The notes beneath the pieces were generated by a model that worked only from the letters and a program-made list of their open reading frames with translations, searched no databases and was not told the DNA's origin. Below, one piece after another: positions 32,346 through 43,053 of a stretch of DNA of 64,000 bases. Position 1 is the stretch's first letter; each line of letters begins with the position of its first letter. Origin of the DNA: a phage. The stretch lies in the sequence record PV357172.2; one strand, 5' to 3'. The position numbers were made by a program, and so were the translations under genes.

Positions 32346-32792
32346 TACTCTGCATGTCTCGGTGCACAATACCTGTACCGAGACTCAAATACAAACTCTC
32401 GTTGACAGATAGCTAAATGTATGTTATCATAACTCTATGAGTTAATAGAATTAACCATTTAGAGTTGCCACACAGAAGGTGTGGTGGTTCAGTAATTTAA
32501 AATTACTAACTTGTAGCGGAGGATACGGAGCGACAGGACAAGTTAATAAGTAATTTAATATAAATTACTAGAAACATCACGAGACCTTCTGGCGGGGGGC
32601 AAAGCTCTATATGAGAACCCTGGGGGATCTTATATTTAAAATAAAAGTAAAACTTTTGACCACATAATTTACATTCAAGATGATACACCTGTTGCCGCTC
32701 ATCTGCTAGGATGGCACAACACTTTCTTCTAGACTCCTAAGTTTCTAGGAAATTGATAAGCACAAATTCTAGAGATCACACAAAAATATTCA

Positions 32793-33529
32793 TCGGATTT
32801 GCACATATTCTAGGGCAGTTTTCACTGTTCCTAGAAACTCCAGCAATAGGCGGTTAATACAGGGCGGTTATAGGGAGGGCGGTTATTTCTAGGAGACATT
32901 TTTTGAAAACACATTTCCAGAAATTACTGTCGGATTTGCACATTGTGTTTCTAGAAATTTATGGTCGGATTTGCACAAACGCCTAAGTTTTTAGGAACTC
33001 TTACTCTCCTGAAAATAGCAGCATTATTTCGGGCCGAAGGCCCATGATTGCCTGAGTTTTTAGAGCCACAAGAATTTTCACTTGTCAAGCTATTTTGCCC
33101 CATTTTGCTAATAAAATTTTACTTTTTCTGCACCTATCTCAAATTTCCCCAAATTATCTCAACTCTTCCCCAAAATCCCCGCAAATCAGGTGCTCCGCAC
33201 CAATCCTGCGCCTACTTCCTTCTAGTCCCAAAATTTCTCTCACTCTCTCATCCTCTCCTCAAACCTATACAATCACACACCCTCTCATCGAAGTCATAAA
33301 AATCTTGTCGGATTCGCACATCTCAACACATGTCGGATTTGCACATACTCTAGCTAATCCCACAGGATTCGAACGCAGTTCGTGATTGCTGGAGTTTTTG
33401 GGAAAATTCATTGTCGGATTTGCACACTATAAAAATTTTTCGGGTCGGATTTGCACACTACCAAAAATTGTCGGATTCGCACATACACGCCCACGCGTAA
33501 TCCATGGGGGCAAATGTCGGTTTTGCACA
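32793..33529. repeat. dispersed array of 10 copies of GTCGGATTTGCACA in non-coding DNA
   Basis: Copies near 32793, 32928, 32964, 33307, 33332, 33413, 33444, 33470, 33516 (two as GTCGGATTCGCACA, one GTCGGTTTTGCACA); irregular spacing. Confidence 0.8.
33100..33300 (+). repeat. about 200-nt pyrimidine-rich (C/T) tract with strand asymmetry
   Basis: Plus strand almost lacks G across this interval. Confidence 0.7.
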
Positions 33530-33559
33530 AAAGCGCAGGGCAATTGCCCTGCTCGCCTG

Positions 33560-33735
33560 AATGCGAATAAAAATAAGAATCATTCTCATTTAAAAAGTGG
33601 AATGCGAATGAGAATCATTATCATTTAGAAAACGGAATGAGAACTATTCAAGAAGTGAAATGATTCTCATTTAAAAAGTGGAGTGATTATCGATTAGCTA
33701 GTGAAATGCGAATGATAATGATTCGCATTTAAAAA
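33560..33735. repeat. tandem about 35-bp repeats with Fur-box-like palindromes
   Basis: Four to five units such as AATGCGAATGAGAATCATTATCATTTAGAAAACGG; GAGAATCATTATC matches 12 of 13 positions of the Fur consensus. Confidence 0.6.
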
Positions 33736-33762
33736 CGGAAGTGAGAAACACTGCTATTTAAG

Positions 33763-33872
33763 TTATCCACAGACTTATTAACAGCACGATTTGACTTGAC
33801 AGAATCCTAGCCATTTTGAGGCGTTATCCACAGACTTATCCCCAGGTTATTCTACTGTATAAATATACAGTA
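33763..33872. repeat. left arm of inverted repeat carrying DnaA boxes
   Basis: TTATCCACAGACTTAT twice (33763, 33824) followed by CTGTATAAATATACAG palindrome. Confidence 0.7.
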
Positions 33873-33987
33873 TTCCTATGCAGTGAATAATTCTAATATA
33901 GGCTTAAAACGTCCTGAGTGGTGGTACTAAAACAAAGGGGTATTTATCTGAAGGACTGAAAAACTGGGATCTGCTCCCCGCTTGTTA

Positions 33988-34182
33988 TCAGTCCGGTAAT
34001 TGATGCGTGATCTTCTCCTCCTCCCCGTAGGAATCCACCAAATGCTGATAATACCCATCGTTATCATAAATCACTTTATCATAATCGCCACGCTCGACCG
34101 CTTGCCGATTTTCCAGCGTATCAGGCACAAAGAAAGTATCAACGGTAACAGTAGTTTTAGTTACAACAATTTTATCACTCAT
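33988..34182 (-). CDS. hypothetical protein (64 aa)
   Basis: Minus-strand ORF in the IR-flanked cassette; Fur-like motif in its upstream region (34196-34216). Confidence 0.45.
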   Translation of the reverse strand: MSDKIVVTKTTVTVDTFFVPDTLENRQAVERGDYDKVIYDNDGYYQHLVDSYGEEEKITHQLPD

Positions 34183-34308
34183 AACGCCATCGCCCCTAGA
34201 ATGAGAATGATTATTATTACCATTACAAGCCCGTTACTAAATCGTAAACGCTGGGAATGTTTACCAGCGGTATTATTAGATTTATGGGATTGCGTTTTAC
34301 GCCACCAG

Positions 34309-34509
34309 CTATTCACGGTAGACACGCCAGCCGTCTAGCTTCCATTCTTCCCCCTTGCGAATATTGAAAAACCAATCATTAAAATTGTAACCATCTTCTG
34401 ACATGATCACGCCGTTTTCTTTCATGTACAAAAATTCATTGCTAGTAAAATATTGATTACTAACTTTAAAACCTTGTTTCATTTTTTCTAGTGCTTCATC
34501 TTTAGTCAT
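34309..34509 (-). CDS. small protein with DUF2829-like pattern (possible Tad2-like sponge)
   Basis: EALEKMKQGFKV...DW...EEW...GW pattern resembles DUF2829 proteins as I recall them; AGGTGG SD. Confidence 0.4.
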   Translation of the reverse strand: MTKDEALEKMKQGFKVSNQYFTSNEFLYMKENGVIMSEDGYNFNDWFFNIRKGEEWKLDGWRVYRE

Positions 34510-34850
34510 TGCGCCACCTTTCGAAACGCTGTTTCAATACTATCCGCAGTGGATTGAATATACGCGCCTTTCATTATCAGGCGCTCGGTACATACCTTGC
34601 GGAAAATATTAATAAAATCATCTTCGTTTTCTGCAATTAATGCTTCACCCATAACCTGAACGTCACAAGATGCAAAGGTCAAAAATTGAAACGCTAGTTC
34701 ACGGGCAACGACCGCATTAATTTTATAGTGCGCCTTGCCCTCATAAATATTAATAACGCCCTTATATTCAGGGGAAAGCTGATTTAAATAGTTTGCTAAT
34801 AATGCCGGACGGCAATTAGCAACAAAACGATTGCCCTCATAAATTACCAT
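34506..34850 (-). CDS. hypothetical protein (114 aa)
   Basis: ATG at 34850 with GGAG SD. Confidence 0.5.
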   Translation of the reverse strand: MVIYEGNRFVANCRPALLANYLNQLSPEYKGVINIYEGKAHYKINAVVARELAFQFLTFASCDVQVMGEALIAENEDDFINIFRKVCTERLIMKGAYIQSTADSIETAFRKVAQ

Positions 34851-34851
34851 T

Positions 34852-35064
34852 TTATAACACTCCACGAAAGGCCGCGTAAAAGGTGGCAAAATGTTTAACC
34901 GTCTCAGCGATCACGTTGCCCCGTTTATCGAATTTCTTTTCTGTAACACGAAAGGCGTTTTTGTTGCGTGCTACATATTCGATTTTACAATCTGGACGCT
35001 CGAACGTGTTAACGTCCACCAGCTTAAAGCCTTTCGAACGTGTAAGGGAAACGTTACGGATCAT
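34852..35064 (-). CDS. hypothetical basic protein (70 aa)
   Basis: AGGAG SD; translationally coupled. Confidence 0.5.
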   Translation of the reverse strand: MIRNVSLTRSKGFKLVDVNTFERPDCKIEYVARNKNAFRVTEKKFDKRGNVIAETVKHFATFYAAFRGVL

Positions 35065-35825: not shown

Positions 35826-35935
35826 CCCTGTATATTTATACAGTGGAATAACCTGTGGATAAGTCTGTGTAAAAGTGCTGTAAAGCCTTCCTATTGTGTC
35901 AATCAAATTTACAAAATGTATAAACCTGTGGATAA
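35826..35935. repeat. right arm of inverted repeat carrying DnaA boxes
   Basis: Reverse complement of the left arm: CTGTATATTTATACAG palindrome and TGTGGATAA twice (35854, 35927). Confidence 0.7.
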
Positions 35936-36126
35936 CTTAAATGATAGTGGTTCTCACTAACTAATTTATACAGTTATTATATAACAAAATATAGTTAGTT
36001 GGCTAATAGGATTTTAAAGTGATTATGAGTCTGCTAAGTAAACCTGAAAAACTCATTAGGTAGTCTGCTAATGATTTTGATATAATATAATAGAGATTAA
36101 ACTAATAACATAAGGAAACAATAACA

Positions 36127-36645
36127 ATGGGTCTATTTAAAGATATAGATTATTCGCTTGCTAATGATAACTTTTATTATGATGAAACATCCCCATCATT
36201 TCTAAGATGGAAAGTACAGAAAGGTAATAGTAAGGTGGGGGATATTGCAGGGCATTATAGTAACACAGGTTACTATCGAGTAAAGTTAGCAGGCGAACAA
36301 TACGCAGTGCATAGAATAATATGGGTATTATTTAATGGTGAGATTGATAGCAATCTAACAATCGATCATAATGATCGTAACCGTGCTAATAATAACATTA
36401 ATAATCTTCGCTTAGTAGATCATAAGCAGAATACGAATAACAAGAAAGATTATAAGCGTGCTAATAAGTTGCCTAAGCATATCTATTATAATGGTTCTAG
36501 AGTTGATAATAACGGAAGAAACTATTTGCGCGCTATAGTTAAAGATCCTACTAGTAACAAAAGTGTTAGTAAATCAGGTTATGATTTACAAGAGTTATTA
36601 TTATGGGTAGAAACTAAAAAAGCTGAATTTGGGATTGTCAATTAA
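36127..36645 (+). CDS. HNH homing endonuclease
   Basis: HRIIWVLFNGEIDSNLTIDHNDRN...NNLRLVDHKQN HNH motif. Confidence 0.8.
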   Translation: MGLFKDIDYSLANDNFYYDETSPSFLRWKVQKGNSKVGDIAGHYSNTGYYRVKLAGEQYAVHRIIWVLFNGEIDSNLTIDHNDRNRANNNINNLRLVDHKQNTNNKKDYKRANKLPKHIYYNGSRVDNNGRNYLRAIVKDPTSNKSVSKSGYDLQELLLWVETKKAEFGIVN

Positions 36646-38336: not shown

Positions 38337-38744
38337 ATGACTAACGCAAAAACCGCAAAATTCGCATGGAATGAAGAAAACACTCAGAAAGCTGTTACCA
38401 TGTACCAGCAGTTAATCAACGAAAACGGTTTAGATTTTGCAAATAGCGACGGCCTGAAAGAGATTGCAAAAGCAGTAGGCGCGGCTTCTCCTGTGTCTGT
38501 TCGCTCAAAATTGACCAGTGCAAAAGCCTATCAAAAAAGCGATAAGCCGCGTAAAGTTGGCGGCGGTAGTTCAATCCGTAAAGCGCATTATGTGCGAGTA
38601 ATTGCAAAACACGCTATCGATTCCGGCATTATCAAAGACGCCGATGATCTGGCAAGCCTTGAAAGTGCTAAACTGGAAACGCTGGACGCAGTAGCGCAAC
38701 TGTTAGGCGTTGCCGATGAAGTAAAACAGGCCGCAGGTGAATAA
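38337..38744 (+). CDS. hypothetical pre-early-region protein (135 aa)
   Basis: AGGAG SD; followed by hairpin GCCCCCT...AGGGGGC. Confidence 0.5.
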   Translation: MTNAKTAKFAWNEENTQKAVTMYQQLINENGLDFANSDGLKEIAKAVGAASPVSVRSKLTSAKAYQKSDKPRKVGGGSSIRKAHYVRVIAKHAIDSGIIKDADDLASLESAKLETLDAVAQLLGVADEVKQAAGE

Positions 38745-39120: not shown

Positions 39121-40791
39121 ATGATTATTTCCGCAGAAAAACAAACCGTTATCCTGAAAATGGCCGCTGACTTTAATTTCTATGGTAAACGTCTGCGCGC
39201 TACTAAACTGGAGGTCTGCGACGATATATCAAAAGCAGTCTACGATACAACGAAACATTCCACCGCCATTTGTGATTGGCTGGAAGCAAACAAACCAGCG
39301 AAACCAAAAGCGGCAAAAGTAGCAAAAGCCATTAAAAACGATGAGCGCCCCGAAGCGGCGGGGATTGTTTCTAGCACGGTTGAACAGTGGGAAGTAAAAC
39401 AGGGTAAACGCTTTATTATTACGTCGATTCAGAATAATACTTTCCCGCATAAAAACTTTTTAGCCTCGCTTGAACAATTTGCTAAATATATCGGCGCTGA
39501 TTTGCTTGTTTCTAAGTATATTTATAATAAAAACGGTTTTCAAAATGGCGAGGGCGCGGATGGAATAAAGTATGATTCCGCGTTCGATAAATATATTTGC
39601 AGCAAAAACGTGTTTTTACATAACCGCCGTTTTGCTTTCATGGCTGAAATTAATGTTTTGCCAACCGCAGATTATCCGCTTTCTGGATTCGCAGAAACTG
39701 CTACCGCGCTCAATATTGAAGGGCTGGCAATTGGTCACGCTAAAATTACCGCCGAAAGCGTGCCAGCTTTAAAAGGTGAAGTAGTGCGCCGTATGTATTC
39801 AACCGGAACGGCAACGCTCAAAAACTACATTCAGCAGAAAGCAGGACAAAAGGCCGAGGCGCTGCATAACTTCGGTGCGCTTATTGTTGAGTTCGATGAT
39901 GATGGGGAATTTTTTGTTCGCCAGCTTGAAACAATGGACGAAAGCGGGGTGTTTTATGATCTGAATGTTTGCGCTACTCCTGCCGGATGCTATGAAACAT
40001 CGGGGCATGTTTTAGGCTTGCAGTATGGCGATATTCACGCCGAAAAATTAGATGAGGAGTGCGCCGCCGCATCTTGGGGGCATGGTGATACCTATGGGCT
40101 AGTAGATATTCTTAAACCAAAATATCAGTTTGTGCATGACGTGCATGATTTTACATCGCGCAATCATCATAACCGCGCATCCGGTGTATTCCTAGCGAAA
40201 CAGTATGCCGCCGGACGTGATAAAGTTCTGGATGATCTTATCGATACCGGTCGCGTGCTGGAATCAATGGAACGTGATTTTAGTCAAACAATCATTGTTG
40301 AATCGAATCACGATTTGGCGCTATCCCGTTGGCTTGATGATCGTAATGCTAACATTAAGGACGATCCCGCCAACGCCGAACTATATCACCGCCTGAATGC
40401 TGCGATTTACGGAGCTATTGCAGAAAAAGACGACACCTTCAACGTGCTAGATTATGCGCTGCGCAAGGTTGCAGGTTGTGAATTTAACGCCATTTTCCTA
40501 ACGACTGACCAATCTTTCAAGATTGCAGGTATTGAATGCGGCGTACACGGTCACAATGGCATTAACGGGAGCCGTGGCAATCCGAAACAATTTAAGAAAT
40601 TGGGCAAATTAAACACCGGACACACTCATACCGCCAGCATTTACGGCGGCGTTTATACCGCTGGCGTGGCTGGTAGTCTGGATATGGGTTACAACGTTGG
40701 CGCGTCAAGCTGGACACAAACGCATTTAATTACCTATGCAAACGGTCAACGCACTTTGATTGACTTTAAAAACGGTAAATTCTTTGCGTAA
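39121..40791 (+). CDS. A1: A1-like pre-early protein, Mre11/SbcD-type metallophosphatase nuclease (556 aa)
   Basis: Metallophosphatase motifs GDIHA, ESNHD, GHNG and GHTHT; length equals T5 A1 as I recall it. Confidence 0.65.
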   Translation: MIISAEKQTVILKMAADFNFYGKRLRATKLEVCDDISKAVYDTTKHSTAICDWLEANKPAKPKAAKVAKAIKNDERPEAAGIVSSTVEQWEVKQGKRFIITSIQNNTFPHKNFLASLEQFAKYIGADLLVSKYIYNKNGFQNGEGADGIKYDSAFDKYICSKNVFLHNRRFAFMAEINVLPTADYPLSGFAETATALNIEGLAIGHAKITAESVPALKGEVVRRMYSTGTATLKNYIQQKAGQKAEALHNFGALIVEFDDDGEFFVRQLETMDESGVFYDLNVCATPAGCYETSGHVLGLQYGDIHAEKLDEECAAASWGHGDTYGLVDILKPKYQFVHDVHDFTSRNHHNRASGVFLAKQYAAGRDKVLDDLIDTGRVLESMERDFSQTIIVESNHDLALSRWLDDRNANIKDDPANAELYHRLNAAIYGAIAEKDDTFNVLDYALRKVAGCEFNAIFLTTDQSFKIAGIECGVHGHNGINGSRGNPKQFKKLGKLNTGHTHTASIYGGVYTAGVAGSLDMGYNVGASSWTQTHLITYANGQRTLIDFKNGKFFA

Positions 40792-41616: not shown

Positions 41617-42351
41617 ATGAATCAAGTTAAAACGAATATTACCCGTAATTTCCCGCATATTTCCCGCGTCATGATTTGGGATCTTGATGGCACTATCGTT
41701 AATTCATTCCATCGTGTCGCGCCTTGCTTTGATAGCGACGGGAATTTAAATTTAAATAAGTATAAAAATGAGGCTTGCAAACATGATTTAATAATGCAAG
41801 ATACTTTATTGCCTTTGGTGGAATATATGCGCCAATGCATGAATGACGCAAATACTTTAAACATTATTTGCACCGCTCGACTGATGAGCAAATCAGACTA
41901 TTATTATTTGCGTAAACAAGGATTGCGCGGGCGTGGTGATAGTAATATCCGTGTATTTTCCCGCGATACACTGCATAAATATTTTGAGGCTGATAAGGTT
42001 AGCGAAATATACCACAGCAAAGACGCAGTTTATAAATCGTATTATTTTGAGCTATTCAAACAACTATATCCGAACGCTGATTTTACAATGATTGATGATC
42101 ATAAAGGTGTATTATCAGCGGCAGCGTCATACGGATTTAAAACGCTGGACGCGCAAGCCGTTAATGATATTCTATCAATCGGCGTGGCATTGATAGGCGG
42201 AACCTTTATTGATGAATCTCTCGATGATGATAATGATTATCAGTTCCTAGCGGACCGATTGAAATTATGTTGGGAAAGTATGACCGAGGAAGAACGCGCA
42301 GAATATAGTTGCAGCCCGCAACAATATATTGAGAAATTAAAAGTTGCGTAA
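41617..42351 (+). CDS. dmp: HAD-superfamily phosphatase, Dmp-like 5'-deoxyribonucleotidase (244 aa)
   Basis: HAD motif I DLDGT and motif IV IDDH; same length as T5 Dmp as I recall it. Confidence 0.6.
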   Translation: MNQVKTNITRNFPHISRVMIWDLDGTIVNSFHRVAPCFDSDGNLNLNKYKNEACKHDLIMQDTLLPLVEYMRQCMNDANTLNIICTARLMSKSDYYYLRKQGLRGRGDSNIRVFSRDTLHKYFEADKVSEIYHSKDAVYKSYYFELFKQLYPNADFTMIDDHKGVLSAAASYGFKTLDAQAVNDILSIGVALIGGTFIDESLDDDNDYQFLADRLKLCWESMTEEERAEYSCSPQQYIEKLKVA

Positions 42352-42513
42352 TAATTAAAGTTGAAATAGTCACGGTGTGTAATGATAACATGCCGTGACT
42401 ATTAGCTTGCTAAGTACCGGGCGGTAATGAGACTCATTCTCATCTGGGGGGCCACTGCACCCACCCACGCGTACGTAATCCAAAGAATTTGGCAAAAGTC
42501 ATTTTAGTGCTAA

Positions 42514-43053
42514 TTAACTGTTTAATTGGGCAACGTCTGGTATACTTCCTTTGAACATCTCCTGTATTGCAAAGTCACCATGAAATGTCCTTCTTAGTAA
42601 ATTTGCATAATTTACGGCATCTTCTAATCCGCTATAGGGAAAGTACTTAGTAGTACCCCTTATCAGCCCCTGTTTATCATGTAATCTTACCATCCACTTC
42701 TGAAGTTCTTTATGCCATGTAACATTTAGATAGCCTGATGATGCTCTTGAGATTCTGCCATTATGATTATTCTCTGTAATTGAAGCCTCTCTTAAATTTG
42801 ACCATCTATTATTTAGTTTATTCCTATCTATGTGGTCTACACATTCCTCTGGCCATCTATTCTCCATAATAACAAAAGCTACTTGATGTGCATAAGCTTT
42901 AAACCCTCGATACTTAAGCTGCCTATATCCCCTATTTAAAGTACCTGCTTCTTTACCCTTACGATTGCCTCTTTTCCAGGTAAAAACTCCGGTTTCGGGA
43001 TCATAAGCAAATACTTCTTGTATTTCCTGTATGTTTAAATTATTCTTCATCAC
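42514..43053 (-). CDS. HNH homing endonuclease
   Basis: HQVAFVIMENRWPEECVDHIDRNKLNNRWSNLRE HNH motif. Confidence 0.75.
   Translation of the reverse strand: MMKNNLNIQEIQEVFAYDPETGVFTWKRGNRKGKEAGTLNRGYRQLKYRGFKAYAHQVAFVIMENRWPEECVDHIDRNKLNNRWSNLREASITENNHNGRISRASSGYLNVTWHKELQKWMVRLHDKQGLIRGTTKYFPYSGLEDAVNYANLLRRTFHGDFAIQEMFKGSIPDVAQLNS

What the first reader, a model, noticed from the sequence alone, without database searches (positions are those of the whole stretch)
34309..34509. Small DUF2829-like protein in the inverted-repeat cassette: anti-defence candidate
The 66-aa product (EALEKMKQGFKV...DWFFNIRKGEEWKLDGW) resembles, from memory, the DUF2829 family that includes Tad2-type sponges for Thoeris signalling nucleotides. 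It sits with other tiny unknown ORFs in the region that in T5 relatives enters the cell first. The family assignment is tentative.
Basis: inference. Interest (0 to 1): 0.55.

Follow-up and report, generated by a model that had tools for sequence, protein, structure and literature searches.

The report
Minimal Tad2-fold protein, T5-like pre-early region
A real 66-residue gene, in the part of a T5-like phage genome that enters the cell first, encodes a stripped-down version of the Tad2 fold that phages use to soak up bacterial alarm molecules; it lacks the residues canonical Tad2 uses to bind the Thoeris signal, so it is a good but untested anti-defence candidate with an unknown target.

Summary
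The ORF is exactly as described: 34309-34509, minus strand, 66 aa. It overlaps the upstream gene by ATGA, has a good Shine-Dalgarno site, and is conserved in about 71 T5-like phage records. It belongs to a family of 585 clusters at 50% identity.

- The AlphaFold2 model has pLDDT 96.9.
- Profile-profile comparison with the Tad2 family gives 90-91% probability.

Strict membership fails:
- Pfam PF11195 scores 18 bits against a cut-off of 25.
- The confident alignment covers only residues 1-31.
- The invariant W-N-G loop is F-T here.
- No S-x-T-D motif is recognisable.
- The whole beta2-beta3 insertion, which provides the dimer interface and the cyclic-dinucleotide site, is missing.
- The family has its own invariant residues (E25, E38, F21, W61).

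The gene lies in the first-step-transfer region with A1, A2 and dmp, inside the known DnaA-box inverted-repeat cassette. Its slot holds different genes, or none, in other T5-like phages.

Best reading: a short-form, Tad2-like pre-early sponge with a non-canonical ligand. Oligomeric state, ligand and target are all untested.

The parts
34309..34509 (-). 66-aa ORF encoding a short-form Tad2-fold (DUF2829-superfamily) protein, PHROG 3474
34514..34520 (-). Shine-Dalgarno-like AAGGTGG, 4 nt upstream of the ATG. The ATG overlaps the TGA of the upstream gene (ATGA), which suggests translational coupling.
   Evidence: Upstream sequence printed; sequence.
34506..34889 (-). Upstream gene, counterpart of the gene annotated T5.015 in NC_005859 (PHROG 4379). 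The PHROG match begins at residue 14, so the real start is probably the ATG at 34850, giving 114 aa.
   Evidence: T5 annotation.
33988..34182 (-). Downstream gene, T5.017 homologue (PHROG 6973) and last gene before the injection-stop region
34852..35064 (-). Homologue of the T5 pre-early protein that nicks abasic sites made by host Ung (PHROG 4227), in the same operon-like array
   Evidence: annotations.
33740..33870 (.). Left arm of the ~131-bp inverted repeat bracketing the variable pre-early cassette. It contains the DnaA box TTATCCACA.
   Evidence: Corresponds to IRD'-spacer-IRC' of T5-like phages (10.1101/866236).
35828..35958 (.). Right arm of the same inverted repeat (IRC-spacer-IRD equivalent)

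Best explanation
The ORF is a genuine pre-early gene of a T5-like (Epseptimavirus-type) phage. It is expressed from the first ~8% of the genome to enter the cell, in a translationally coupled array of small genes.

Its product is a minimal version of the Tad2/DUF2829 fold: an N-terminal helix, a small antiparallel sheet, short C-terminal helices and a final Trp-bearing strand. The ~24-residue beta2-beta3 insertion of canonical Tad2 is replaced by a tight turn (E31-N32-G33).

The most likely function (inferred, not shown) is that of a homo-oligomeric small-molecule sponge. It would sequester a nucleotide-derived immune signal before the rest of the phage DNA enters. The pocket would be formed by the structural elements that line the Tad2 pocket, which are also the most conserved parts of this family:
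- the beta1-beta2 loop, with F21 and E25;
- the beta3-beta4 turn, with E38-D39-G40-Y41;
- the following helix, with W46/F47 and R51.

The canonical gcADPR-contacting residues are replaced or deleted. The ligand is therefore probably not bound the way SPO1 or Hgm Tad2 bind gcADPR, and it may be a different signal.

Shown here: gene reality, fold, genomic position, accessory status. Inferred: oligomerisation, ligand binding, anti-defence role.
For: Fold:
- AF2 model with pLDDT 96.9 and pTM 0.82.
- The top Foldseek PDB hit is SPO1 Tad2, probability 0.96.
- BFVD hits include 60-63-aa proteins named DUF2829 or Tad2-like.

Sequence:
- PF11195 is the only Pfam hit for this protein, and it is hit by 26 of 104 family members, best E=1e-5.
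- SPO1 Tad2 is the top PDB sequence hit.
- hhalign gives P=90-91%, E=1e-6.
- A low-stringency extension keeps I63->I35, T65->S37, D67->D39, W73->W46, D79->E55, W85->W61 and W25->F21.

Family behaviour:
- Tested Tad2 homologues are sponges with widely varying specificity, covering CBASS, Pycsar and Thoeris types I, II and IV (10.1101/2025.08.24.671296).

Context:
- The gene lies in the FST region with A1, A2 and dmp.
- Only dmp, A1, A2 and T5p007 are conserved across T5-like FST regions, and FST functions include protection against host defences (10.1101/866236).
- The slot is variable. T5 has the unrelated T5.016, phiLLS has a 52-aa hydrophobic ORF, and Stitch has nothing.
- The gene is in about 71 T5-like records, against about 271 with the neighbouring T5.017 homologue.
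- In other phage groups it sits in arrays of small early-type ORFs.
Against: - No experiment or multimer model was available.
- Pfam is below its gathering score (18 against 25 bits).
- The confident profile alignment stops at residue 31.
- A broad family profile no longer retrieves Tad2 chains significantly from PDB sequences: E=0.8-1.2, N-terminal helix only.
- The residues invariant in the Tad2 alignment A3 (R22, W25, N26, G27, K28, S76, Q77, D79, D84) are mostly not conserved here. W-N-G becomes F-T with a deletion.
- Mutating W21/N22 or S90/T92/D93 in HgmTad2 strongly reduces gcADPR binding (10.1101/2023.11.15.567273).
- Helix alpha2 packs the V-shaped Tad2 dimer and, when extended, forms the cyclic-dinucleotide pocket. 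It is missing here, so the tetramer may not form.
- The family's own invariant residues are two glutamates (E25 100%, E38 97%), which is not what one expects around phosphates.
- No fusions to known sponge domains (Acb4, Sequestin) were found among 30 longer family members.
Confidence: 0.45

Rival explanations
1. Canonical Tad2: a tetrameric sponge that binds 3'cADPR (1''-3' gcADPR) and blocks type I Thoeris, exactly as SPO1 Tad2 does.
For: Same fold. The best and only Pfam and PDB sequence hits are Tad2. Some pocket residues may be conservatively retained under a low-confidence alignment: I35, S37, D39, W46, E55, F21.
Against: The W-N-G loop, which binds the diphosphate in HgmTad2, is F-T with a one-residue deletion. 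S-x-T-D is absent. Mutating either motif in HgmTad2 markedly reduces binding. The beta2-beta3 insertion with helix alpha2, needed for the V-shaped dimer, is deleted. Pfam is below its gathering score. These motifs are invariant in 58 Tad2 homologues but not in this family.
Confidence: 0.12
2. The Tad2-like fold serves as a scaffold for a protein-protein inhibitor or host-takeover factor. The protein would bind and neutralise a host enzyme or defence protein directly, as the neighbouring pre-early protein does with Ung, rather than sequester a small molecule.
For: Pre-early T5 proteins act on host proteins: the homologue two genes upstream (34852-35064) uses Ung (annotations; PMC8201957 abstract). 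The canonical ligand motifs are lost. The protein is acidic (pI 5.1) and 20% aromatic. Its invariant residues are glutamates.
Against: Every Tad2-fold protein characterised so far is a small-molecule sponge. The anti-Cas9 activity once claimed for the DUF2829 protein AcrIIA7 could not be reproduced. Conservation is concentrated in the loops that form the Tad2 ligand pocket.
Confidence: 0.25
3. A nucleotide- or metabolite-binding accessory of pre-early host takeover, for example buffering a nucleotide or NAD-derived metabolite during A1/Dmp-driven host DNA breakdown, with no role against defence systems.
For: It is co-located with dmp and A1 in the FST region. The fold is known to bind nucleotide derivatives. 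One family member hits MazG_C weakly, at E=0.006.
Against: The gene is dispensable and patchy among T5-like phages, and absent from T5 itself. That pattern fits an accessory counter-defence gene better than a core takeover function. There is no metabolic gene linkage in other phages.
Confidence: 0.1
4. A non-functional or spurious small ORF.
For: It is short and annotated only as 'hypothetical protein' everywhere.
Against: 585 family clusters, strong column conservation, pLDDT 96.9, a Shine-Dalgarno site with ATGA coupling, and 97% protein identity across many phages.
Confidence: 0.02

Closest known systems
Tad2 (Thoeris anti-defence 2; Pfam PF11195 Tad2-like/DUF2829). Solved examples: SPO1 Tad2 (8SME/8SMF/8SMG), ModTad2 (9EIB), HgmTad2 = AcrIIA7 (8KBI), SptTad2 (8WJD)
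   Different: It is 66 aa rather than 86-104 aa. The whole beta2-beta3 insertion is replaced by a 3-residue turn; that insertion carries alpha2, the V-dimer interface, and in Hgm/Spt/Mod the second pocket for cyclic nucleotides. W-N-G becomes F-T(-). There is no S-x-T-D motif. It has family-specific invariant residues E25 and E38, plus H18, which is N in this phage. It scores below the Pfam gathering score. Oligomeric state and ligand are unknown.
Short-form DUF2829 proteins of phages, for example the 60-63-aa BFVD entries A0A8S5RI74 and A0A2K9VAK2 (Klebsiella phage KpS110); PHROG 3474 and 22208
   Same: Same size and same predicted mini-fold (TM 0.65-0.9). Same phage groups, namely enterobacterial T5-like, T4-like and phAPEC8-like phages.
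   Different: None of these is characterised. Some pass the Pfam model and this one does not. I could not retrieve their sequences to compare motifs.
Other phage immune-signal sponges (Tad1, Acb2, Acb4, Sequestin, Lockin, TadIV-1)
   Same: The proposed mode of action is the same: a short protein that forms a homo-oligomer with interfacial pockets (PMC12265669).
   Different: The folds are unrelated, and no fusion or adjacency to them was found.

Membership tests
Tad2 / Pfam PF11195 (Tad2-like, DUF2829) | Sequence matches the Pfam model at or above its gathering score | tested here: not met
   18 bits against a cut-off of 25, E=0.0043, covering profile positions 1-50 of 73 only. 26 of 104 family members hit at E<0.01, best 1e-5. 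The precomputed Pfam field is empty for all close homologues.
Tad2 / Pfam PF11195 (Tad2-like, DUF2829) | Tad2 monomer fold (alpha1, antiparallel beta sheet, C-terminal helix and strand) | tested here: met
Tad2 / Pfam PF11195 (Tad2-like, DUF2829) | Remote sequence homology by profile-profile comparison | tested here: met
   hhalign of A2 against A3 gives P=90-91%, E=1e-6, but confident only for residues 1-31.
Tad2 (gcADPR sponge, strict sense) | W-N(-G) in the beta1-beta2 loop, contacting the ligand and its diphosphate (SPO1 W25/N26; Hgm W21/N22/G23) | tested here: not met
   In the confident part of the alignment, W25 aligns to F21, N26 to T22 and G27 to a gap. In the family, position 21 is F in 94% and position 22 is T or S in 63%. 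W25, N26 and G27 are invariant in 58 Tad2 homologues.
Tad2 (gcADPR sponge, strict sense) | S-x-T-D motif at helix alpha3 (SPO1 S76/T78/D79; Hgm S90/T92/D93) | tested here: inconclusive
   No such motif occurs in the sequence. A low-confidence alignment places N49, E54 and E55 there, and these columns are poorly conserved in the family. No residue-level structural superposition was available.
Tad2 (gcADPR sponge, strict sense) | beta2-beta3 insertion with helix alpha2 that forms the V-shaped dimer (and the cyclic-nucleotide pocket in the Hgm, Spt and Mod proteins) | tested here: not met
   About 24 residues (SPO1 36-59) align to a gap. The model has a tight turn, E31-N32-G33, between strands 27-29 and 35-37.
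Tad2 (gcADPR sponge, strict sense) | Homotetramer with two interfacial ligand pockets | not testable with these tools
   Only monomer prediction is offered. A natural protein with three tandem copies of the domain exists (P0055), but its geometry could not be examined.
Tad2 (gcADPR sponge, strict sense) | Binds gcADPR, His-ADPR or another immune signal and inhibits Thoeris or other signalling defences | not testable with these tools
   This needs experiments. The sequence motif and phage names I searched for did not occur in the three supplementary files of the 84-sponge screen that are held as text.
T5 pre-early (first-step-transfer) gene set | Located in the terminal-repeat/FST segment, between the left genome end and the injection-stop region | tested here: met
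   The window carries A1, A2, a dmp-like gene and a homologue of the gene annotated T5.014 in NC_005859 around the ORF. The homologue in saus176N lies inside the annotated left terminal repeat. The flanking DnaA-box inverted repeats are present.

The most novel reading that the evidence does not exclude
This is a member of a large, uncharacterised 'mini-Tad2' family: 585 clusters at 50% identity, found in T5-like, T4-like Klebsiella and phAPEC8-like phages among others. The family would have kept the Tad2 core and rebuilt the pocket around two invariant glutamates and conserved aromatic residues. It would sequester an immune signal, or another small molecule, that canonical Tad2 proteins do not bind, possibly with a different oligomeric architecture. 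In T5-like phages it would be delivered from the first-entering DNA so that signalling defences are disarmed before the bulk of the genome arrives.
Probability: 0.3. Interest if true: 0.7.

Novelty: new variant of a known kind. Interest (0 to 1): 0.5.

Why it matters
If the protein is a sponge, it would be the smallest Tad2-type scaffold known. It would show how far the fold can be pared down and re-specified. It would also add a counter-defence function to the T5-type first-step-transfer region, most of whose small genes remain unassigned.

T5 itself lacks the gene, and close relatives such as Eps7, S116 and BSP22A carry it in an otherwise syntenic slot. These phages therefore form a natural isogenic-like test set for asking which signalling defences restrict T5-like phages. 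The family's wide spread in therapeutic-candidate phages of Salmonella, E. coli and Klebsiella gives this practical relevance.

Tried and rejected
- **Broad family profile against PDB sequences.** Tad2 chains dropped to E=0.8-1.2, matching the N-terminal helix only. The sequence link therefore rests on the N-terminal third. The narrow profile also gave only E=0.045.
- **NCBIfam.** Nothing meaningful.
- **Fusion analysis of 30 longer family members.** It found only Zn-ribbon, SEC-C and DnaJ-type additions. There were no Acb4, Sequestin or canonical Tad2 domains, so no guilt by fusion.
- **Neighbourhoods.** I examined Klebsiella phage JD18, phAPEC8 and five metagenomic contigs. All were arrays of unannotated small ORFs, consistent with early or accessory regions but not diagnostic.
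- **Supplements of the 84-sponge screen.** The sequence motif and phage names I searched for did not occur in the three supplementary files held as text.
- **Tandem-domain protein P0055 as a proxy for oligomer packing.** I did not run it.
- **Second copy, or a canonical Tad2, elsewhere in the window.** None found.
- **T5.016 as a homologue.** Rejected: its sequence is unrelated.
- **Anti-CRISPR (AcrIIA7-like) reading.** Rejected. The activity could not be reproduced for HgmTad2. From general knowledge, not tested here, type II CRISPR-Cas systems are not typical of E. coli or Salmonella.

Full report
**Observation**

It runs 34309-34509 on the minus strand, from ATG to TAG, and encodes 66 aa with the quoted sequence. 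Its ATG overlaps the TGA of the upstream gene (ATGA), and AAGGTGG lies four bases upstream.

The window is from a T5-like phage. The 1.8 kb around the ORF matches 441 phage records, the best being Epseptimavirus-type Salmonella and E. coli phages at about 89% DNA identity.

The protein is 97% identical in many of these phages and matches PHROG 3474 at E=8e-28. An exhaustive HMM search of 1.8 billion cluster representatives found 585 relatives at E<=1e-3. Nearly all are 60-70 aa, with the consensus MTKxEAxxAMxxGxKVTHxYFxxxEYxxxxxxGxIxxEDGYxxxxxWxxRxxxxWxxGWxI. This is a real, widespread small phage gene.

**Genomic setting**

The window contains these genes:
- A1 (39121-40791), A2 (38337-38744) and a dmp-like gene (41617-42351);
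- the homologue of the pre-early protein that exploits host Ung (34852-35064);
- homologues of T5.012, T5.013, T5.015 and T5.017 (numbering of NC_005859) around the ORF.

Their order is that of the T5 left terminal repeat, which is the first-step-transfer DNA. In phage saus176N the homologue lies inside the annotated left terminal repeat.

The 1.5-kb non-coding stretch at 32400-33950 carries the repeats and DnaA boxes typical of the T5 injection-stop region.

The six small minus-strand genes are bracketed by ~131-bp inverted repeats at 33740-33870 and 35828-35958. These are the IRD'-spacer-IRC' and IRC-spacer-IRD elements that Davison described (10.1101/866236). That paper also notes that only dmp, A1, A2 and T5p007 are conserved across T5-like FST regions.

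The slot holding this gene varies between phages:
- T5 has the unrelated 85-aa T5.016 there, which occurs in only 10 records.
- phiLLS has a 52-aa hydrophobic ORF.
- Stitch has nothing.
- The neighbouring T5.017 homologue is in about 271 T5-like records, and this gene in about 71.

The gene is therefore an accessory pre-early gene.

**What the protein is**

Sequence evidence alone is marginal but specific:
- PF11195 (Tad2-like) is the only Pfam hit, at E=0.004 and 18 bits against a gathering score of 25, covering the first 50 of 73 profile positions.
- SPO1 Tad2 is the top PDB sequence hit, at E=0.005.
- 26 of 104 family members hit PF11195 at E<0.01.
- A profile of 104 family members against a profile of 58 Tad2 homologues gives 90-91% probability and E=1e-6, but the confident alignment covers only residues 1-31, that is helix alpha1 and strands beta1-beta2.
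- A broad family profile does not retrieve Tad2 chains significantly from PDB sequences.

Structure settles the fold:
- The AlphaFold2 model, built on the 104-sequence alignment, has pLDDT 96.9.
- The top Foldseek hit is SPO1 Tad2.
- The BFVD viral structure library returns many proteins named DUF2829 or Tad2-like, including 60-63-aa short forms.

**How it differs from canonical Tad2**

In SPO1 Tad2 the ligand contacts are W25, N26, I63, T65, D67, H71, W73, S76, T78 and D79 (10.1101/2023.05.01.538930). In HgmTad2, N22 and G23 hold the diphosphate, and the W21A/N22A and S90A/T92A/D93A mutants lose most gcADPR binding (10.1101/2023.11.15.567273).

In my Tad2 alignment, R22, W25, N26, G27, K28, S76, Q77, D79, D84 and W85 are invariant. 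In this protein:
- W25 aligns to F21, N26 to T22 and G27 to a gap, all within the confident part of the alignment.
- About 24 residues of the beta2-beta3 insertion are absent. That insertion contains helix alpha2, which builds the V-shaped dimer and, in the Hgm, Spt and Mod proteins, the second pocket for cyclic nucleotides.
- No S-x-T-D motif exists.
- A low-stringency extension of the alignment does keep I35, S37, D39, W46, E55 and W61 opposite I63, T65, D67, W73, D79 and W85, but its confidence is low.

The family has its own conserved residues: E25 (100%), E38 (97%), W61 (97%), A6, G13, F21 (94%), G40 (91%), K15, R51 and H18 (83%, but N in this phage). These lie mostly in the beta1-beta2 loop, the beta3-beta4 turn and the following helix. 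Those are the elements that line the Tad2 pocket.

**Mechanism**

The best-supported reading is a short-form Tad2-fold sponge. It would be made at once from the first-entering DNA, and it would sequester a host immune signal. Its pocket chemistry, and perhaps its oligomeric architecture, would differ from canonical Tad2.

Supporting this, Tad2 homologues have very diverse specificities: CBASS, Pycsar and Thoeris types I, II and IV (10.1101/2025.08.24.671296). [quoted passage not shown]

The canonical gcADPR and type I Thoeris reading is disfavoured by the motif losses. A non-sponge role, as a protein-protein inhibitor or host-takeover factor, cannot be excluded.

I could not model oligomers or superpose coordinates. 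Fusion analysis and neighbourhood analysis gave no functional linkage.

**Novelty and score**

No study found in the searches run here characterises this family, and all records call it hypothetical. It is best classed as a new variant within the Tad2-like superfamily. Interest is moderate: a well-founded, easily testable anti-defence candidate with a natural comparison set, since T5 lacks the gene and Eps7-type relatives carry it. It has no functional evidence yet.

Noticed in passing
window 33740-33870 and 35828-35958: Imperfect inverted repeats of about 131 bp (77-85% complementary), containing TTATCCACA DnaA boxes, bracket the 2-kb cassette of six small pre-early genes. They match the IRD'-spacer-IRC' and IRC-spacer-IRD elements proposed to be part of the T5 injection-stop signal.
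   Followed up: partly
window 32784-33532 and 33762-33839: The non-coding region between the T5.018 homologue and the cassette holds at least 7 copies of a GTCGGATTTGCACA-centred direct repeat. It also holds two exact 17-nt repeats, GTTATCCACAGACTTAT, each with a consensus DnaA box, plus several hairpin-forming inverted repeats at 33571-33729. This looks like the injection-stop (iss) repeat region of T5-like phages.
   Followed up: partly
window 36127-36645 (+): An HNH homing-endonuclease ORF (PHROG 99 and related) sits just outside the right inverted-repeat arm, on the opposite strand. No homologue of the 337-aa T5.011 gene is present between the cassette and A2, unlike in T5 and S116.
   Followed up: no
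window 34183-34308; L003 8681-8938; L007; L008 1267-1425: The slot between the T5.015 and T5.017 homologues is a variable insertion point. It holds this gene here, the unrelated T5.016 in T5, a 52-aa hydrophobic ORF in phiLLS, and nothing in Stitch, which has a 126-nt gap.
   Followed up: yes
window 34506-34889 (-): The upstream ORF is listed from a TTG (127 aa), but its PHROG match starts at residue 14. The real start is probably the ATG at 34850, giving 114 aa as in T5. That leaves a 1-nt gap to the preceding gene instead of a 38-nt overlap.
   Followed up: partly
proteins P0054, P0064, P0081, P0095, P0148: Very long repeat proteins (760-1700 aa) match only positions ~36-58 of the family profile, 6-9 times each. 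The matching motif is GYxFxGWF-like, as in bacterial surface-protein repeats. This is a local motif resemblance to the EDGYNFNDWF turn and probably not homology.
   Followed up: no
protein P0055 (L013 334-1329): A 331-aa metagenomic protein carries three tandem copies of this mini-Tad2 domain in one chain, next to a DarA_C-domain gene. It could mimic an oligomer of the single-domain proteins.
   Followed up: partly
window ~42352-42513: The dmp-like gene, which is leftmost in T5, ends at 42351, and genes of the opposite orientation begin at 42514. The genome-end or terminal-repeat junction of a collapsed or permuted assembly probably lies here.
   Followed up: no
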